Below are positions 54,001 through 64,000 of a stretch of DNA of 64,000 nt, in pieces. The translations under genes and the position numbers were made by a program. The DNA lies in assembly GCF_025526975.1 (NCBI RefSeq), contig NW_026515673.1, positions 868,001 through 932,000 on the forward strand, in the 5' to 3' direction. Numbering within the stretch: position 1 is the first letter of the stretch; each line of letters begins with the position of its first letter. This DNA is from Fimicolochytrium jonesii. Lineage: Eukaryota. The notes beneath the pieces are model-generated. The model was not told the DNA's origin and searched no databases. It worked only from the letters and a program-made list of their open reading frames with translations.

Positions 54001-54248
54001 AAGGATGTTGAACAGGGGCGGCGGGCTATTATAACCCATGATGTTGCGAGTTCTATTGCGAGTTCTATTATTAAAAGTTGCTGCTCCGCATAAAACCTCC
54101 TTTCCACAGCACAGTCACCTCCTCTCTCAACCGGCCCTTTTCCCCACAACCCATAACGGCCGATCTCTAAGCTCATCGTCCAATATCCCATCCACTCGAG
54201 CATACTACGCACAGCCGACACACTCAACAAACGCCTAATTCCAAAACC

Positions 54249-56243
54249 ATGGCTTCTCCTCACATTATCGTTGTCGGCGGTGGTCTAGCCGGTTTGTCCG
54301 CTGCTCACACCATCTTGGAGCGCGGCGGGAACGTGATCCTTCTCGACAAGAACGGTTTCCTGGGAGGAAACTCTACCAAAGCGACGTCTGGTATCAACGG
54401 AGCCAACACCGCTACGCAGCGCAAGCTGAAGATTCCAGACACCTCCGAGATCTTCTACGAGGATTCCGCGAAATCTGCCCGTGATCTGATCGTGCCCCCA
54501 CTCACCAAGGTCCTGACGTACCAATCTGGCGCCGCCGTCGAATGGATCCAGGACAACTTCAAGGTCGACCTTTCGCTGGTGTCGCGTCTCGGTGGTCACT
54601 CCCAACCCCGTACGCACCGTGGAAAGGAAATGTTCCCTGGTATGACAATCACCTACGCGTTGATGGAACGTCTGGAAGATATCGCAAACGACACCCCTAC
54701 CCGCGCCAAGGTCATCAAGAAGGCCAACGTGAACAAAATCGTGAAGGAGAATGGAAAGGTTGTTGGTGTGGAGTATGAGAGGGATGGCAAGACGTACAAG
54801 GAATCTGGGCCGGTGATTGTCGCCACTGGTGGTTACGCTGCCGATTTTTCCGCTACCTCTCTCCTTAAGAAGTACCGCCCTGAGCTGCTCGATTTGCCTA
54901 CTACCAACGGAGACCATTGCACTGGTGACGGTATCAAGCTCACTGAGGCCATCGGTGGAAACACGTTGCACATGGAAAAGGTACAAGTTCACCCAACTGG
55001 TCTTGTTGACCTCAAGGAGCCCGACGCCAAGGTCAAGTTCCTTGCCGCTGAAGCTCTTCGTGGTGTCGGAGGTCTTCTCCTCGACGCCAACGGTCACCGT
55101 TTCTGTGATGAGCTTGGACACCGTGATTACGTGACTGGCAAGGTGAGAACGGCCAAAATTGGGGATGCTGGAGTTGACGGCTGAACATTTGGAACTAATT
55201 TCTTGATCCCAATGTAGATGTGGGAGAACAAGGGTCCCTTCCGGTTAATCCTGAACGGCAAGGGAGGAAAGGAGATCGAATGGCATTGCAAGCACTACAT
55301 GGGCCGTGGTCTCATGAAGCACTTCAAGGGAGCCGACGCCCTCGCCAAGGAGATGGGCATCAACGTGAAGGTTCTGGAAGAGACCTACACAAAATACAAC
55401 GAGATCGCCCGCACGAAGAAGGACCCCTTCGGCAAGAAATTCTTCCACAACGTCCCCTTCGTCCCCGACGACGAGTTTTGGGTCGCCATCGTCACCCCCG
55501 TCCTCCACTTCACCATGGGCGGAATTCAGATCGACGACCAATCCCGCGTGCTGGGTCACGGCGACAACAAGCCCGTTGACGGTCTCTTCGCCTGCGGTGA
55601 GGTCGCCGGCGGTGTGCACGGCGCCAACCGTCTCGGTGGATCCTCCCTCCTCGGATGTGTCGTCTACGGCCGTGTCGCTGGTGCCACCGCCGCCACTTAC
55701 ATCCTCGAAGAGCTGTCCAAGAACAACACCGCTGCTCGTCGTGTCGGTGGGATCGCTGGCCACCTTGCCTCTTCCCCGGTCTCCATCTCCGTCAACGGCC
55801 TCAAGATCACCCTCGCCGCCGACGACGGTTCCTCTTCCTCATCCGCCTCTACCGACGAGGGCGCCGCATCGCAAACCGAGCCCCGCCCCACTGAGGCCAA
55901 CACTGGACCAGAACCCAAGGGCAAGCCAGCTGCGAGCAAGGAGTACACGCTCGAGGAGGTTGCGAAGCATAACACGGAAAAGGACTGCTGGGTTGTTGTT
56001 AACGGCCAGGTGCTGGATGCGACCAACTTTTTGCCTGACCACCCGGGAGGCAAGAAGGCGATCATGCTTTACGCTGGTCGTGATGCAACTGAGGAGTTTA
56101 ACATGTTGCACAAGGTTTGTGAATATGCTTCCAGGTTTCTTCCTTCCACTCTCTTAAATCCAGTACTAACACGGTTCCCCCCCTAGCCCGAGGTCGTTGC
56201 CAAGTATGCGCCTGAGACAATCATTGGCACACTGAAGAAGTAG
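54249..56243 (+). CDS. Soluble fumarate reductase (Osm1/Frd1-type flavocytochrome) with C-terminal cytochrome b5 domain, 3 exons
   Basis: 'IIVVGGGLAGLSAA', 'GGNSTKATSGING', 'RLGGHSQPRTHR', 'VQVHPTG', 'LAAEALRG', 'HFTMGG', 'GGVHGANRLGGSSL'; b5 domain 'EEVAKHNTEKDCW...FLPDHPGG...DATEEF'. Confidence 0.94.
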
Positions 56244-57926: not shown

Positions 57927-60396
57927 ATGTCAAACAGCACCACCCGCTTCACTCTAGTCGCCGCCGCCCTACGCAACGGCGGCGGCATCGGCGTCAACAA
58001 CTGCCTGCCGTGGCGAATTCCTGGCGACATGACCTTCTTCCAGAAAGTCACAACCTGGCTAGGACGGGGCTCGTCGCAGCCTTTCACACACAACACAGAA
58101 CATGGCGATGCGACGTCTCCTCTCAATGTGGTTATTATGGGACGCAAGACGTGGGACTCGATACCGGCGCGGTTCAGGCCTTTGAAGGGGAGACTGAATA
58201 TTGTGTTGTCGAGACAGTCTCGGCTGAGGGATGCTATCCGGAGGTAAATTTCGAAGGAAGACATAGGTCTGAGCCTCTGCGGTACACGACGTTCTTCCTG
58301 GACACGACCTTAATGTAACCCACCAGTCTCGCCCCGCAGTTCCAGCATCCACGACAGCCCCGCGTACAGCTTCCCTACCCTCGAATCCGCCCTCGCCTAC
58401 CTGCAATCCATACCCCATAGCGCCATCTTCATCATCGGCGGAGCCCAACTCTACGCGAACTGCATAACCCATCACCAATGCGAGCGGATCCTGCTGACAG
58501 CCGTCGACCCACCCAACCCGATTGAATGCGACGCGTTCTTCCCGGAGATTCCTAGCGATCTGTTTAGATTGGCGAGTGGGAGAGAGTTTGCGAATGTGGT
58601 GGGGCAAGAGTACCCGGACGGGATTCGTGCGGAAAACGGGTATGGGTATGAGTTCCAGATGTGGGTTCGGCGCGATGATGAAAGGCAACGAACTGCCCGA
58701 GCGCCGTCAGAATTGCCGGTAGATCTCGCAACGTGCTCCTCCGACCGAGCCCACGGCCGAACAAGCCGACACCCCTTCCCCGACCCCTCCGTCTCTGCAA
58801 TCACCCCAGCGTCACAGACCCCACACGGCGCATCCTACTCTCTATCAAACTCCCACCCATTGCTCTCACTCCAAATCGACCCTTCGCTGGTCTGGCACCC
58901 CTCCGACATGTCCGTGCCGTCCACCATCCTCCCCAACGACCTCCTCCTCCTCGGCGGCGCCAACGCTCCGCCAGAGGGAGCTTACACCCCGCTGTTCACG
59001 CCGGAGAAAAGTGAACAGAGTTTTAGGACTGCGAGGTCGTCCGCTGGTAAAAGTGGGATACCTTCACCATCAGGAAGTGACCATCGCCGGGAGGAATCGA
59101 CACCGTGGGAAGGCTTCAACAGCACATTGGGCTCGACACCCAGTGAGCGGGCTGCCCGGAGCGATTCGTCGAGGAGGGATCATGACGGGGATAGAACAGT
59201 CACCTGTGAATCGAACTCGGTGTATGATTCGCTGATGATGCGTGTCCAGGAGGTGTTGATGCTCGAGGACCAGGAGAGTGCGGATGAAGAGGTGGTGGTG
59301 GATCCGGAAACGAGTTTGTTGCAGAAGGTGCACGAGATTTTGCAGGGGGGTGAGGGAGTTACTATCGTGGGTATGCGAGAGGGTGCAGTTGCGCAAAGGA
59401 GGTCGAATCAACAGCCGATTGCCCTGGATGTATCTGGCCATCGAGACCACTCCGCCCGTCGGGATAACGACCAAGGAGATGAACAACAAGACGACTTCCC
59501 CCACTCAGACCCCCTCCCCGGCCAAACCAACATCGACTTCTCCCTCGCGGACGGCACGATGGCCATGTCGGACGTTGCGGCCGCCGTGCATGCCAAAACA
59601 ACGGTTAGGTCGAGACAGCCCACGCGGTACGGGGAATGGAATGCGCTGCGTGAGTTGGGTGGTACGAGGCGGGATGTGGGGGGTAGACCGGTTGTGGGAG
59701 GGTTAGCTGGTGCCCCGCCGCCACCTGTGAGAGGAACAGTGAGGGAAAGGCCCGTGGATCCGTCTATATGGGTGCCGCGGATCGAGTATGAGTCGTTTGT
59801 GAGCAATGGGGGGGAGGATAGTGTTGCTGAGGTATTGTTGCAAATCAGAAGAGTTGGGTCTTGAACTTGGGGTTCGGGCGGGGAACTGATGGTTTTCTTT
59901 ATGATGTTTGTAGCATGAACTTGCCCCCATCTTGGCGAAATACGCGGCTATCACTGCGGCCGGCCGGCGGCAACCGTCCTTGTATCAACATTCAAAGCAA
60001 GTGTTACACCAAAACCATGTTGGGCAGCGGTCAGCGGGACCAGCCGGGCAGTTCCCGCCTCACGAAATCCACCGCCCAACCTCCCTCAGCAGTGACGAGG
60101 AGGACTACGACTCGTACACGGCCCCACCGTCCGCCATAAATCTGACCAATATGGACAGCACAACCTTCGCCGACCAGCTCTCCCTTGCGAGTATGGAGTA
60201 TATGAAGCGGTATGGGCTCGCTGGGGCTGGCGGTAGCGGTGCGCAATCGGAAAAATTGGGGAAGGAGGCAGCGGGTACAAACGCATCGGTGCAAAGATTG
60301 CGCTCGGTGCAACGTGAGCAGCTGAGTAAAGTGTTGGATGTGGAGCGGATTAGGAGGTTGCCGAAGTTGGGGATGCCTGGGCCGAGGAGGGGGTGA
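57927..60396 (+). CDS. Dihydrofolate reductase fused in frame to a STIL/Ana2/SAS-5-like C-terminal region (exons 57927-58243, 58340-59852, 59914-60396; 770 aa)
   Basis: DHFR motifs 'GIGVNNCLPWRIPGDMTFF', 'NVVIMGRKTWDSIP..FRPLKGRLNIVLSR', 'IFIIGGAQLY', 'CDAFFP', 'YEFQMWVR' with no stop afterwards. C-terminal 'LSLASMEYMKRYGL' and 'VLDVERIRRLPKL'. Confidence 0.75.
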
Positions 60397-60581: not shown

Positions 60582-60783
60582 TCAGCGGAGAGAACCGTCC
60601 TTTTTCTTCACGAATAAGACTGGCGCACCGACAGGGGACTTTGAGGGTTTGATGAATCCTTTGGCAAGGTTTTCTTCGAGGTATTCGCAGAGTGCTTTCA
60701 TTTCTGGTTCGCTGAGGTTGTAGATCGGGCCGAAAGGTGGCTGCTTGCCTTCTTCCAGATCGATAGGACAGTCGTAGGGCCAT
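60582..60783 (-). mobile_element. Ty3/gypsy LTR-retrotransposon relic (start of RT domain)
   Basis: '[65 protein letters not shown]' is truncated just before the usual CVDYR. No LTRs seen. Confidence 0.88.
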
Positions 60784-60871
60784 TTCTGAGCCTCAATGAT
60801 ATCCACTCCGCTTCATGACGTTGGATTAATATACTGTATATGTACAAACCGGGTAACGCGCTTCCATGCGA

Positions 60872-63723
60872 TTACTTCCAATTAGAAGACGCAGCCTCAA
60901 GGAATCCTTTCTCGATGAGCTGGAGCATATCTGCCTGATGCGGTAGGAGCTGCGTAGGAGAACCTTTATGTTGGATGCCTGGTGACACAAAAAGAGTGCT
61001 CTTCGCCAGATCTGCTTACCTTGAAGACCGGACGTTTAGGCGCCCCTGGGTCTATTTTCCCATTCTGAAAGAAAGGATGTTATGAGTGCTTAGCGACTTG
61101 TGAACATTTTTGCGTTGACGAGAATGCCGGAGCTTGAACGGTACCTTGTGGCTGGCAGAGTATGTCCCCAGATCCTGCTCCCACTTGGCGAGGGCCACCC
61201 GATGCACTTTCCGCCGTTGAATCAGGTCTGTTAGGACTACGTTGCGCTTGATGTCGCTGGATAACACGCATAAACGTTATATCAGTGCCTCGGCTCATAT
61301 GAGGGTCTTTCGAACTCGACGGACTCACCCCGTAACATTCAACGGAATCTTATCCCCATGATCATCCTTCCTCGACTTCCCCCTCGACCTATGCGTTCAC
61401 ACCACAACCCATCAACAAACGCACGCTTCCAACCAAGAATCTCCATCTTACTGACTTCTTGCTCTTCCCCTTATCCTTCTTATCATCCGCATCGGCGCCC
61501 TTCCGTTGGTTCCACCACGCGGGTTCGAGCTTGTCCCAGTATTTGCACACGACGTCCACTTGCGCGTTGCGGATTGCGTGCCAGGCTAGGACGATGTTTT
61601 GGGCTTTTACGACTGTGAGGAGTGTCAGAGACGATGAGATGTTGCGGGTTTGGATCGTGGTGTGGGAGGGGGAAAGGGGTGTACGTACCAGAGAATCGAT
61701 ACTTCTTGACGACCTTCATGAGACGGGACACGTCGTAGACGTCGCGCAGGAATTGGCGGATCGTGTCGGCGGCTAGGTGCCGCTGGAGCTCGCGGCGGCG
61801 GGCGACGTATTTCCGGAAGACACTGTCGAATGGAAGTTGTGAGATGTCTGGTATGCGATGACATGAGCACCAAATCCCCCCGGACGTACACGGCGATCTT
61901 CGCCAACGCAGTAATCTTATCCGCCTCCTGCTTCTTCCGGATGTATCTCCGCCACGTCCGCTGGATGAGACGTGCCAAGTGGCCATGGAGGTAGTTGATT
62001 GCGCGGCGTTGGCGTTCGGTCTATAAACCACCGCCGAGAATGAGTAAGCTTGCGTATGGTGACCGCCGGACATGGGTAAACGAACCTCGAGAACGATCTG
62101 AATCATCGTCATCCGGCTAGCGACGGCGGTGAGCATGAACCACTTCTTTTGCATGGCTTCGCCTCGGCCTAGTTGCTCTTTTTCTTTTAGACGTAACGCT
62201 TCCTGCGATTGTCGATGTGTACCATGGACCGGTCAGAATGCTGTTCAATCAGTTTATGCAGAGTTGCTACTCACTACGGCCGTCTCTTTTTTGGCCAGAG
62301 CTGCCATCTTCTCTCGCCATTTTTCCAGGTCCTGTGCTCGCTTCCGGGATCGGATCTCTTGCATGTGGTGACTTCTTTGCTCTCTCTGGGAAGAGAGTGC
62401 ATAATCAGTCACGAACTTGCCAGCGGGCGGATTCCAATGCGTTGCTGACTTACAGCGCTTGCCAGCCTTTGCCGCCGAACTTGAGGCAGTTGCTCTTGCA
62501 CTGTTAGCTTGTTGGCTCGCACCATATCCGCTGGAGCCGTTCGCGCACGATTCAAGTCCATCGCTCGGTAATCCGCTGTATCAAAACAAAAGTTGCCTCT
62601 TTAGTCATCATAACGGCCTCGTCGAACAAGCCCGCAATCCTCAACTCACATATCCGATTCTGGAACAAATCCCACTCAGACTGATTCGTCTTCAGCGTCT
62701 CTATCCGCTTCTCCAGTTCCGCTGCTATCACCCGTATCGGCTTCCTGCCCGCCAGCGTCTTGTTCTCGAGCTGCATGTCAAACATGGGCGATTGGTGATG
62801 GGTGGCGGTGGTGGGCGATTTTTCGGCCTTGCGGCGCTTTCCGCCTTTGTCCAGATCCCCGGCTAAAAGGGAGGTGGTGCTCTGTGTTCGGTCGTCGAAG
62901 TTCTTTGCTCGCTCTATGCATTCATAATGAACGTTTCTGAGTTCCCGGTCCTGGAAAACGCAAAGCCTGAGTTTTATAACTCACCAAAAAGCTTCTGAAT
63001 ATCCAGCAGGTTCCTCTCGAACCCTCCATGTCTATCATCAGTATCGAAACTATACAACGCTCTATCATGTGCCCGGAGGTTCCCGCGTCCATTCCCTCCA
63101 TATCCCCGACCTTCCGGCCCCATAGCCTTGTTCAGCAACCCGATAATCGCGTCCAGTCTCACGTTCTGCTGCAAAATCGGGGTCGAGATCGTTGGCATCC
63201 TATACGGCCCCCCCGTCTCTGGCGGTGGTGGGTACGGAATCGTCTTTGCGCCATTTGCATCGTCGCTCCATATGCTCTCGCTCGGCTGCGCATCTTCCTC
63301 ATTTGCCGATCGCTGATGTTGCGATATCCCCAACGCCGCAGGCGCAATCAACGCCTCTAGGTCCCGTTTCCCTAGATTCGTGGAGGTCCCACTTGCGATA
63401 AGTCGTTGGACCAGTGTTTGTACATCCTGACTGCCTAATTGCATTTTGTATATCGACCCCGGCCGGCTCCTCCGCATGCGTCCGGGCAATTCGCCCAACA
63501 TTCCGGGAACTCTCGTCGCCCCGTACCCATTGGCGGGGGCATCGCGAGTCGGGCTAAATGCCGCCAAAGGGGTTTCCCCGGACTTCTGGGCGGTGACGCC
63601 TAGAGGTAATCGGTAGGCATTTTGATCTATATCCCTTGGGTTCTCATTCTGGGTCTTGTTTGCAGCGTCCAAATGCCGTCCGCCTATTTGAGGGAGATAC
63701 GCCGTCTGAGAGACTGCTGTCAT
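60872..63723 (-). CDS. IQ-motif / coiled-coil protein of unknown function, multi-exon
   Basis: IQ motifs 'ARLIQRTWRRYIRK' and 'AADTIRQFLR', charged coiled-coil exons, GT-AG introns, stop at 60872. Confidence 0.65.
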
Positions 63724-64000
63724 TGTGAATCGATCTGCGGGTTGAAGTTAGGGCTTGTCCGTCACATTGAAAACATATGAGTGTATGCATTGTTTACTCA
63801 CAGTAACTCCAATGAACCAGCGGGCTGCAAGGCTTGCTTGGGATTTTCTACTGTCAATATATATACAGTCTGCCGGAAAGTTGGTTTTTCCATGATGACA
63901 CTGATGCGTTTCGAGATGCCCGACGAGGGAAAGAATATCGACACCGCGAAGGTCTGATTACATAAGCACAATGAACTGCATCTGACGGGGCCTCCGAAAA

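What the first reader, a model, noticed from the sequence alone, without database searches (positions are those of the whole stretch)
59750..60396. Candidate fungal STIL ortholog (STAN + TIM motifs), independent of the fusion
STIL/Ana2/SAS-5 is fast-evolving and, to my knowledge, described mainly from animals. Motif order here (putative coiled coil, STAN, terminal TIM) matches the short Ana2/SAS-5 architecture. The Ser-rich stretch RPTSLSSDEED...DSTTF...LSLAS could provide PLK4 phosphosites. Inference: the PLK4-STIL-SAS6 module predates the animal-fungal split.
Basis: partly seen in the sequence, partly recalled or inferred. Interest (0 to 1): 0.72.

Follow-up and report, generated by a model that had tools for sequence, protein, structure and literature searches.

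The report
Overlooked tail half of chytrid STIL
A fungus with swimming spores has an unnamed gene, joined in frame to dihydrofolate reductase in its DNA, that carries the tail motifs of the animal centriole-building protein STIL and likely binds SAS-6; the gene published as the chytrid STIL is a different one, so these fungi may keep STIL in two pieces.

Summary
The stretch is the 3' end of a three-exon gene (NCBI model of the chytrid Fimicolochytrium jonesii, 763 aa). Its tail is homologous to the STAN and TIM motifs of animal STIL in both directions: fungal-only profile against sea-anemone STIL 47.5 bits; animal-only profile against this protein 40.7 bits, best of 1000 shuffles 3.2. The serine that matches human S1116 is kept. 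Relatives occur across Chytridiomycota, without DHFR. Corrections: the protein has no STIL_N domain, no CPAP-binding PRxxPxP motif and no detectable STIL coiled coil, so it is less than Ana2; the SSDEED stretch is not conserved; and 'PLK4-STIL-SAS6 predates animals and fungi' was in print in 2019. The new point: the published chytrid STIL proteins (EGF76849, KND04479; STIL_N-bearing) are other genes than this family's members in the same species (EGF84215, KNC98666), which a 2026 atlas does not list. STIL may therefore be split in chytrids; I could not fetch the STIL_N proteins to check. This scan noted the same family before in another genome (e1-9902218). The DHFR fusion is seen in one genome and is untested by RNA.

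The parts
57927..58243 (+). Exon 1: start codon and N-terminal part of DHFR
   Evidence: Pfam DHFR_1 E 6.7e-17; splice model agrees with NCBI protein P0001
58244..58339 (+). Intron 1 (96 nt, GT..AG)
58340..58676 (+). Rest of DHFR (to about residue 218), exon 2
   Evidence: Pfam DHFR_1 93 bits on P0001, above the cut-off of 25
58677..58853 (+). About 60-codon linker between DHFR and the STIL-tail part; no stop and no in-frame ATG
   Evidence: stop-free in 491 of 2000 shuffles, so weak as evidence of coding; no branch-site-bearing cryptic intron among 26 GT..YAG pairs
58854..59003 (+). Conserved fungal N-terminal block (HPLL motif, residues 278-327); near the N-terminus in most relatives
   Evidence: alignments A1, A4
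59214..59345 (+).
   Evidence: AlphaFold secondary structure (same pair in P0009); conserved in A4; no Pfam CC_STIL match
59775..59831 (+). STAN first half, exon-2 part (PRIEYES; S591 invariant)
   Evidence: P585, Y589, S591 identical in 20 of 20 relatives; hhalign to animal STIL
59832..59913 (+). Intron 2 (82 nt, phase 0), inside STAN
59914..59943 (+). STAN first helix, ending in KY (604-613)
   Evidence: Y613 in 19 of 19 relatives with a residue; helix 601-619
60157..60216 (+). STAN second half: S685, S693 (matches human S1116), S696 and the Y-x-x-R-Y helix
   Evidence: S693 in 15 of 16, S/T at 685 in 11 of 13, S/T at 696 in 13 of 15 relatives with a residue; human peptides in PMC4477857; helix 688-702
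60328..60369 (+). TIM motif (742-755)
   Evidence: L-P-K-L invariant in alignment A3 of 15 fungal and animal-like sequences; matches the human C-terminal peptide printed in PMC4477857
60394..60396 (+). Stop codon

Best explanation
This gene encodes a chytrid homologue of the C-terminal part of STIL (STAN + TIM), which likely acts as the PLK4-switched adaptor that binds SAS-6 when the centriole cartwheel is started. Shown: homology, motif order, conserved serines, spread across Chytridiomycota, absence of STIL_N and PRxxPxP. Inferred from animals: PLK4 phosphorylates S591 and S693 (with S685/S696), and the two STAN helices and TIM then grip the SAS-6 coiled coil. Inferred from accession lists: the STIL_N head sits on a separate chytrid gene, so CEP85/CPAP binding and SAS-6 binding would be on two polypeptides. 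In this species the gene is joined in frame to DHFR; that is best read as a recent, species-limited fusion of neighbours with no role in the centriole function.
For: Fungal-only profile (11 named proteins, not P0001) scores Actinia STIL 47.5 bits at 1112-1356 and Stylophora STIL 37.6-38.2 bits at their C-termini. Animal-only profile scores P0001 40.7 bits, shuffles at most 3.2. hhalign fungal vs animal alignment: probability 94.8, E 5.4e-8, over STAN. The search of 1.84 billion proteins with six chytrid sequences returned 36 hits; 8 of them match named cnidarian STIL C-termini. Conserved positions match the functional ones: human pS1116 and C-terminal peptides (PMC4477857); the two Ana2 segments protected by Sas6 lie beside S318 and S365/370/373 (PMC7729032), like the two conserved helices here. 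Of the 22 hits whose source was looked up, 17 are chytrids, 1 Endogone, 4 unnamed metagenome proteins. A quick tree groups them roughly by chytrid order. Chytrids have SAS-6 and PLK4.
Against: No Pfam STIL family matches any fungal member (0 of 6; 0 of 34). PRxxPxP is in 7 of 8 animal proteins but 2 of 22 fungal ones, at unrelated places, and not in P0001. No STIL-type coiled coil is detected in P0001, so how PLK4 would dock is unexplained. SAS-6 and PLK4 of this genome could not be checked (no genome held). An Endogone protein keeps the first STAN half and TIM. All animal comparators were found through fungal-containing queries, which favours likeness. No localisation, binding or expression data.
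Confidence: 0.78

Rival explanations
1. Chytrids have two STIL paralogues: a full-length STIL_N-bearing one with its own diverged STAN/TIM (the published orthologue), and this short second copy. No split.
For: Ito et al. say orthologues were checked for critical domains and motifs. The profile used does not detect full-length cnidarian STIL at all, so its failure to return EGF76849 or KND04479 shows little. I did not see these sequences.
Against: The 2026 atlas row for the 8 fungal STIL proteins gives STIL_N in all 8, 0 Pepcoil hits and mean disorder 0.315, which fits short, head-only proteins better than full-length STIL (inference). The STAN+TIM family is well conserved, with one member seen per genome among those looked up.
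Confidence: 0.3
2. The protein keeps the STAN/TIM motifs but serves another microtubule-organising role, not tied to centrioles, which is why a non-flagellated Endogone has it.
For: Endogone RUS15470.1 scores E 3.6e-6 and 73.9 bits with the fungal profile; no CPAP motif or central coiled coil in P0001.
Against: The Endogone protein has a degenerate second STAN half, lies on a 5,945-bp contig and has a long, unresolved branch, so decay or contamination is possible. No Dikarya protein is among the 22 hits whose source was looked up.
Confidence: 0.1
3. The DHFR-STIL fusion is a gene-model or assembly artefact and two separate genes exist.
For: No relative has DHFR. The linker is stop-free in 25% of shuffles and its codon score (0.00) is below that of the flanks (0.08-0.18). 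One assembly, no reads.
Against: DHFR has no stop of its own; there is no in-frame ATG between 58659 and the conserved block; none of 26 candidate introns has a branch-site match by the pattern used, and the only one giving DHFR a near stop has a poor donor; NCBI's model also fuses them.
Confidence: 0.35

Closest known systems
Human/metazoan STIL (Pfam STIL_N PF15253, CC_STIL PF25775; STAN and TIM motifs)
   Same: STAN in two conserved halves with the S1116-equivalent serine; terminal TIM; mostly disordered backbone
   Different: No STIL_N (0 of 31 fungal-type proteins score above 1.8 bits), no PRxxPxP, no CC_STIL; about 490 aa without DHFR against about 1300; a fungal N-terminal HPLL block; DHFR fused in this species
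Drosophila Ana2 / C. elegans SAS-5 and hymenopteran Ana2-like proteins (P0055, P0056, P0058)
   Same: Short form without STIL_N, with STAN and TIM at the C-terminus
   Different: Ana2/SAS-5/STIL are defined with a central coiled coil (PMC2819680); the insect proteins P0055 and P0058 keep PRxxPxP; neither is found in P0001. Some other chytrid members have a heptad-like N-terminal segment by eye (P0016, P0019, P0035), not significant
Published chytrid 'STIL' (B. dendrobatidis EGF76849, Ito et al. 2019; STIL orthogroup of Sci Rep 2026, PMC13358043)
   Same: Same parent family, same phylum
   Different: Different genes: these carry STIL_N; the STAN+TIM proteins EGF84215, KNC98666, TPX40605, TPX42835, TPX57756 are absent from that supplement file

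Membership tests
STIL/Ana2/SAS-5 | STAN motif (about 90 aa) near the C-terminus | tested here: met
   here about 120 aa because of a longer middle
STIL/Ana2/SAS-5 | Terminal TIM motif | tested here: met
STIL/Ana2/SAS-5 | PLK4-site serines in STAN (human S1108/S1116; fly S318/S365/S370/S373) | tested here: met
   S693 aligns with S1116 (15 of 16); S685 has the S1108 spacing (S/T 11 of 13); S591 invariant (20 of 20; equating it with fly S318 is inference). Phosphorylation itself not tested
STIL/Ana2/SAS-5 | Central coiled coil (PLK4 binding, oligomerisation) | tested here: not met
   Pfam CC_STIL matches animal P0052/P0054/P0057 at 17-21 bits (just under the cut-off of 22) but no fungal protein; only two 14-residue helices. 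A finer block-mapping test was not completed, so a diverged coil is not excluded
STIL/Ana2 | CPAP/SAS-4-binding PRxxPxP motif | tested here: not met
   7 of 8 animal, 2 of 22 fungal, absent in P0001; motif defined in PMC6570480
STIL (non-insect) | STIL_N domain (CEP85 binding) | tested here: not met
   no STIL_N segment in the 64-kb window (best E 3.5)
STIL/Ana2/SAS-5 | Binds SAS-6, localises to procentriole, needed for duplication | not testable with these tools
STIL/Ana2/SAS-5 | Co-occurs with SAS-6/PLK4, lost with centrioles | tested here: inconclusive
   17 of 22 looked-up hits are chytrids, 1 Endogone, 4 unnamed; own genome not held
Dihydrofolate reductase (PF00186) | Pfam DHFR_1 above cut-off | tested here: met
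   93 bits against 25; applies to residues 1-218 only

The most novel reading that the evidence does not exclude
Chytrid fungi build centrioles with a STIL that is split into two genes: a head protein (STIL_N, predicted to carry the CPAP motif; the one published as 'STIL') and an overlooked tail protein (STAN + TIM; this family), and Spizellomycetales have also shed the PLK4-binding coiled coil from the tail. Cartwheel start and wall attachment would then be run by separate proteins, a layout not described for animals; a copy surviving in non-flagellated Endogone would mark a late loss of the module in land fungi.
Probability: 0.55. Interest if true: 0.74.

Novelty: new variant of a known kind. 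Interest (0 to 1): 0.56.

Why it matters
The STAN motif, not STIL_N, is the part of STIL that loads SAS-6. If the chytrid gene listed in published tables is only the head, the functional partner of SAS-6 in fungi has been missed, and presence/absence tables for fungal centriole genes need redoing with a STAN+TIM profile. A natural split would show which STIL modules must sit on one chain, and can be tested in Spizellomyces punctatus, for which transformation is reported (PMC7213984, search listing only). [quoted passage not shown]

Tried and rejected
No whole genome held, so SAS-6, PLK4 and a STIL_N gene could not be sought in F. jonesii. No RNA holder listed. PDB sequence searches: nothing below E 0.98 for the exon and 7.8 for the profile. 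Foldseek on the low-confidence P0009 model: no match. ESM Atlas: no STIL cluster, best scores 0.77 and 0.88. Metagenome scan with the fungal alignment: 178 pattern matches, 0 confirmed. STIL_N search among proteins under 746 aa: 24 hits of 156 candidates, none named as fungal. Metagenome scan for STIL_N: 18 loci, AT-rich; only L014 was read, and it continues as a full-length animal-type gene. Complex prediction (two copies of the helix pair) was not available: no verdict. AlphaFold did not fold the DHFR part (no alignment depth there), so it says nothing on the fusion. Short animal block profiles against fungal proteins were mostly at shuffle level; only the pre-STAN helix profile gave a hit above all 1150 shuffles (P0016, 5.3 against 3.9 bits). 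A finer mapping of the helices was not completed. A CPAP-like 'RHPFPDP' at 249-255 was considered and rejected (loose pattern, 7% of shuffles). P0036 (806 aa, unnamed) as full-length STIL: weak only (blastp E 5e-5; no hit). Absence of STIL_N proteins was dropped as evidence after calibration.

Full report
Observation. The span 59750-60396 is the end of a + strand gene with exons 57927-58243, 58340-59831 and 59914-60396. The spliced product has 763 residues and matches NCBI's 'uncharacterized protein' KAI8823133.1 of Fimicolochytrium jonesii, a Spizellomycetales chytrid. Residues 1-218 are DHFR. Pfam finds no STIL family in the tail.

Homology. The last exon found 5 relatives among 4054 candidates, all Spizellomycetales and none with DHFR. 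A profile of these six, run on 1.84 billion proteins, gave 36 hits at E up to 0.001. Sources are known for 22 of the 36: 17 chytrids, 1 Endogone, 4 unnamed metagenome proteins (that the genera are chytrids rests partly, partly on my knowledge). Eight of the other 14 match the C-termini of named cnidarian STIL by blastp; six were not placed. A mixed alignment then retrieved Actinia and Stylophora proteins named SCL-interrupting locus protein, with STIL_N (12 hits of 7995 candidates). Clean reciprocal tests: an 11-protein fungal profile scores Actinia STIL 47.5 bits at 1112-1356; an animal-only C-terminal profile scores P0001 40.7 bits against at most 3.2 for 1000 shuffles; hhalign gives probability 94.8 over STAN only. 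Caveat: the animal set was itself reached through fungal-containing queries.

Functional positions. Moyer et al. (PMC4477857, passages) print the human pS1108, pS1116 and C-terminal peptides. S693 of P0001 sits where S1116 does and is kept in 15 of 16 relatives that have a residue there (20 in the alignment, 4 cut short); S685 has the spacing of S1108 (S/T in 11 of 13); S591 is identical in 20 of 20. The RPTSLSS stretch has a residue in only 4-5 of 20. In Ana2, the two segments protected by Sas6 lie beside S318 and S365/370/373 (PMC7729032, passage); the two conserved STAN helices here (601-619, 688-702) fit that pattern by inference. STAN and TIM are the family's shared motifs (PMC4113102, passages; PMC2819680, passages; PMC5095913, passages).

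What is missing. STIL_N: none of 31 fungal-type proteins scores above 1.8 bits, and none of 2410 window segments matches. PRxxPxP: 7 of 8 animal, 2 of 22 fungal, not P0001 (motif from PMC6570480, passages). Central coiled coil: CC_STIL matches animal proteins only. Some non-Spizellomycetales members have an N-terminal heptad-like segment by eye. So the protein is the tail of STIL, with fewer modules than Ana2, and I file it as a STIL-tail homologue rather than a full member.

What is in print. A 2026 atlas (PMC13358043; passages and supplement 1 parts 1, 9, 11, 12 and searches) has a fungal STIL group of 8 proteins, all with STIL_N, 0 Pepcoil hits, flagellate-specific. The tool placed EGF76849 and KND04479 in its STIL column; I read five more by counting columns (ORY37005, TPX30364, TPX40999, TPX65721, TPX71588) and did not see the eighth. 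The STAN+TIM family has other accessions: EGF84215 in B. dendrobatidis JAM81, KNC98666 in S. punctatus (a model that stops before STAN), TPX40605/TPX42835 in Synchytrium, TPX57756 in S. palustris; none occurs in that file. KND04479 is assigned to S. punctatus from its accession series, not from a call. The numbers lie far apart, so these are unlikely to be halves of one mis-called gene (inference). Long et al. (bioRxiv 2025.01.03.631223; sections 6 and 15, passages) do not name STIL in the text; their figures and supplements were not visible and may list it. Liu et al. (PMC5928214, passages) place STIL_N and CEP85 in animals and choanoflagellates. Searches for STIL+STAN+fungi (3 papers; one read in passages, two seen as listings), STIL+Batrachochytrium+centriole (1) and STIL+'gene fission'+centriole (0) showed no description of a fungal STAN protein or a split STIL; subscription papers are not covered. 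PMC6070874 (passages) notes PLK4 in chytrids; the supplements of PMC11153136 hold no 'STIL'.

Mechanism. Most likely (0.78) the protein is the PLK4-switched SAS-6 adaptor of the chytrid cartwheel: phosphorylation and binding are inferred from animals, not shown. The split reading (0.55) says the head is a second gene. Against it: I never saw the STIL_N-bearing sequences (searches did not return them), and the profile cannot see full-length animal STIL, so a full-length paralogue remains possible.

Distribution. A quick tree (30 rows; the careful search did not finish) groups the fungal proteins roughly by order, with weak backbone support. Endogone RUS15470.1 (Mucoromycota; non-flagellated from recall) keeps the first STAN half and TIM but not a clear second half, on a 5,945-bp contig with a long branch. 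It may be a relic or a contaminant.

Fusion. DHFR runs without a stop into the tail, with no in-frame ATG after 58659 and no convincing hidden intron. But the linker is stop-free in 491 of 2000 shuffles and has a weak codon score, no relative shares the fusion, and no reads were available. I put it at about 0.65 as a real single transcript, and it does not bear on the STIL identity.

Verdict. Real, a new variant of a known family. Interest 0.56: the age of the module is known and this scan met the family before (e1-9902218, not checked here), but the mismatch with the published orthologue and the possible split are new in what I could search, and are cheap to test.

Noticed in passing
P0028, Endogone sp. 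FLAS-F59071 RUS15470.1: A STIL-tail relative in a Mucoromycota fungus (no flagella, from recall): first STAN half and TIM kept, second half degenerate; short contig, so relic or contamination.
   Followed up: partly
window 57927-58853 (+): DHFR joined in frame to the STIL tail, seen in this genome only; if real, the only DHFR here may be carried to the centriole. Whether another DHFR copy exists was not checked.
   Followed up: partly
window 60585-61276 (-): Short broken frames that look by eye like the pol region of an LTR retrotransposon, just past the gene's stop; no telling Pfam match, so the label is from recall.
   Followed up: partly
window 54171-56240 (+): FAD_binding_2 flavoprotein with a C-terminal cytochrome b5 domain (fumarate-reductase-like); ordinary.
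   Followed up: partly
window 61350-63750 (-): Multi-exon gene with IQ-like and charged helical stretches by eye and no convincing Pfam match; possibly ciliary, untested.
   Followed up: no
P0011 (S. punctatus KNC98666), P0020, P0024, P0025, P0039: Several stored gene models of this family stop before or inside STAN, which may be why orthologue searches missed it.
   Followed up: no
P0036 (unnamed metagenome protein, 806 aa): Has second STAN half and TIM plus a weakly STIL_N-like N-terminus; very long branch; could be a full-length STIL of a non-animal eukaryote.
   Followed up: partly
P0055, P0056, P0058 (hymenopteran proteins): Unnamed or misnamed insect proteins with STAN+TIM and no STIL_N match, i.e. 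Ana2-like.
   Followed up: no
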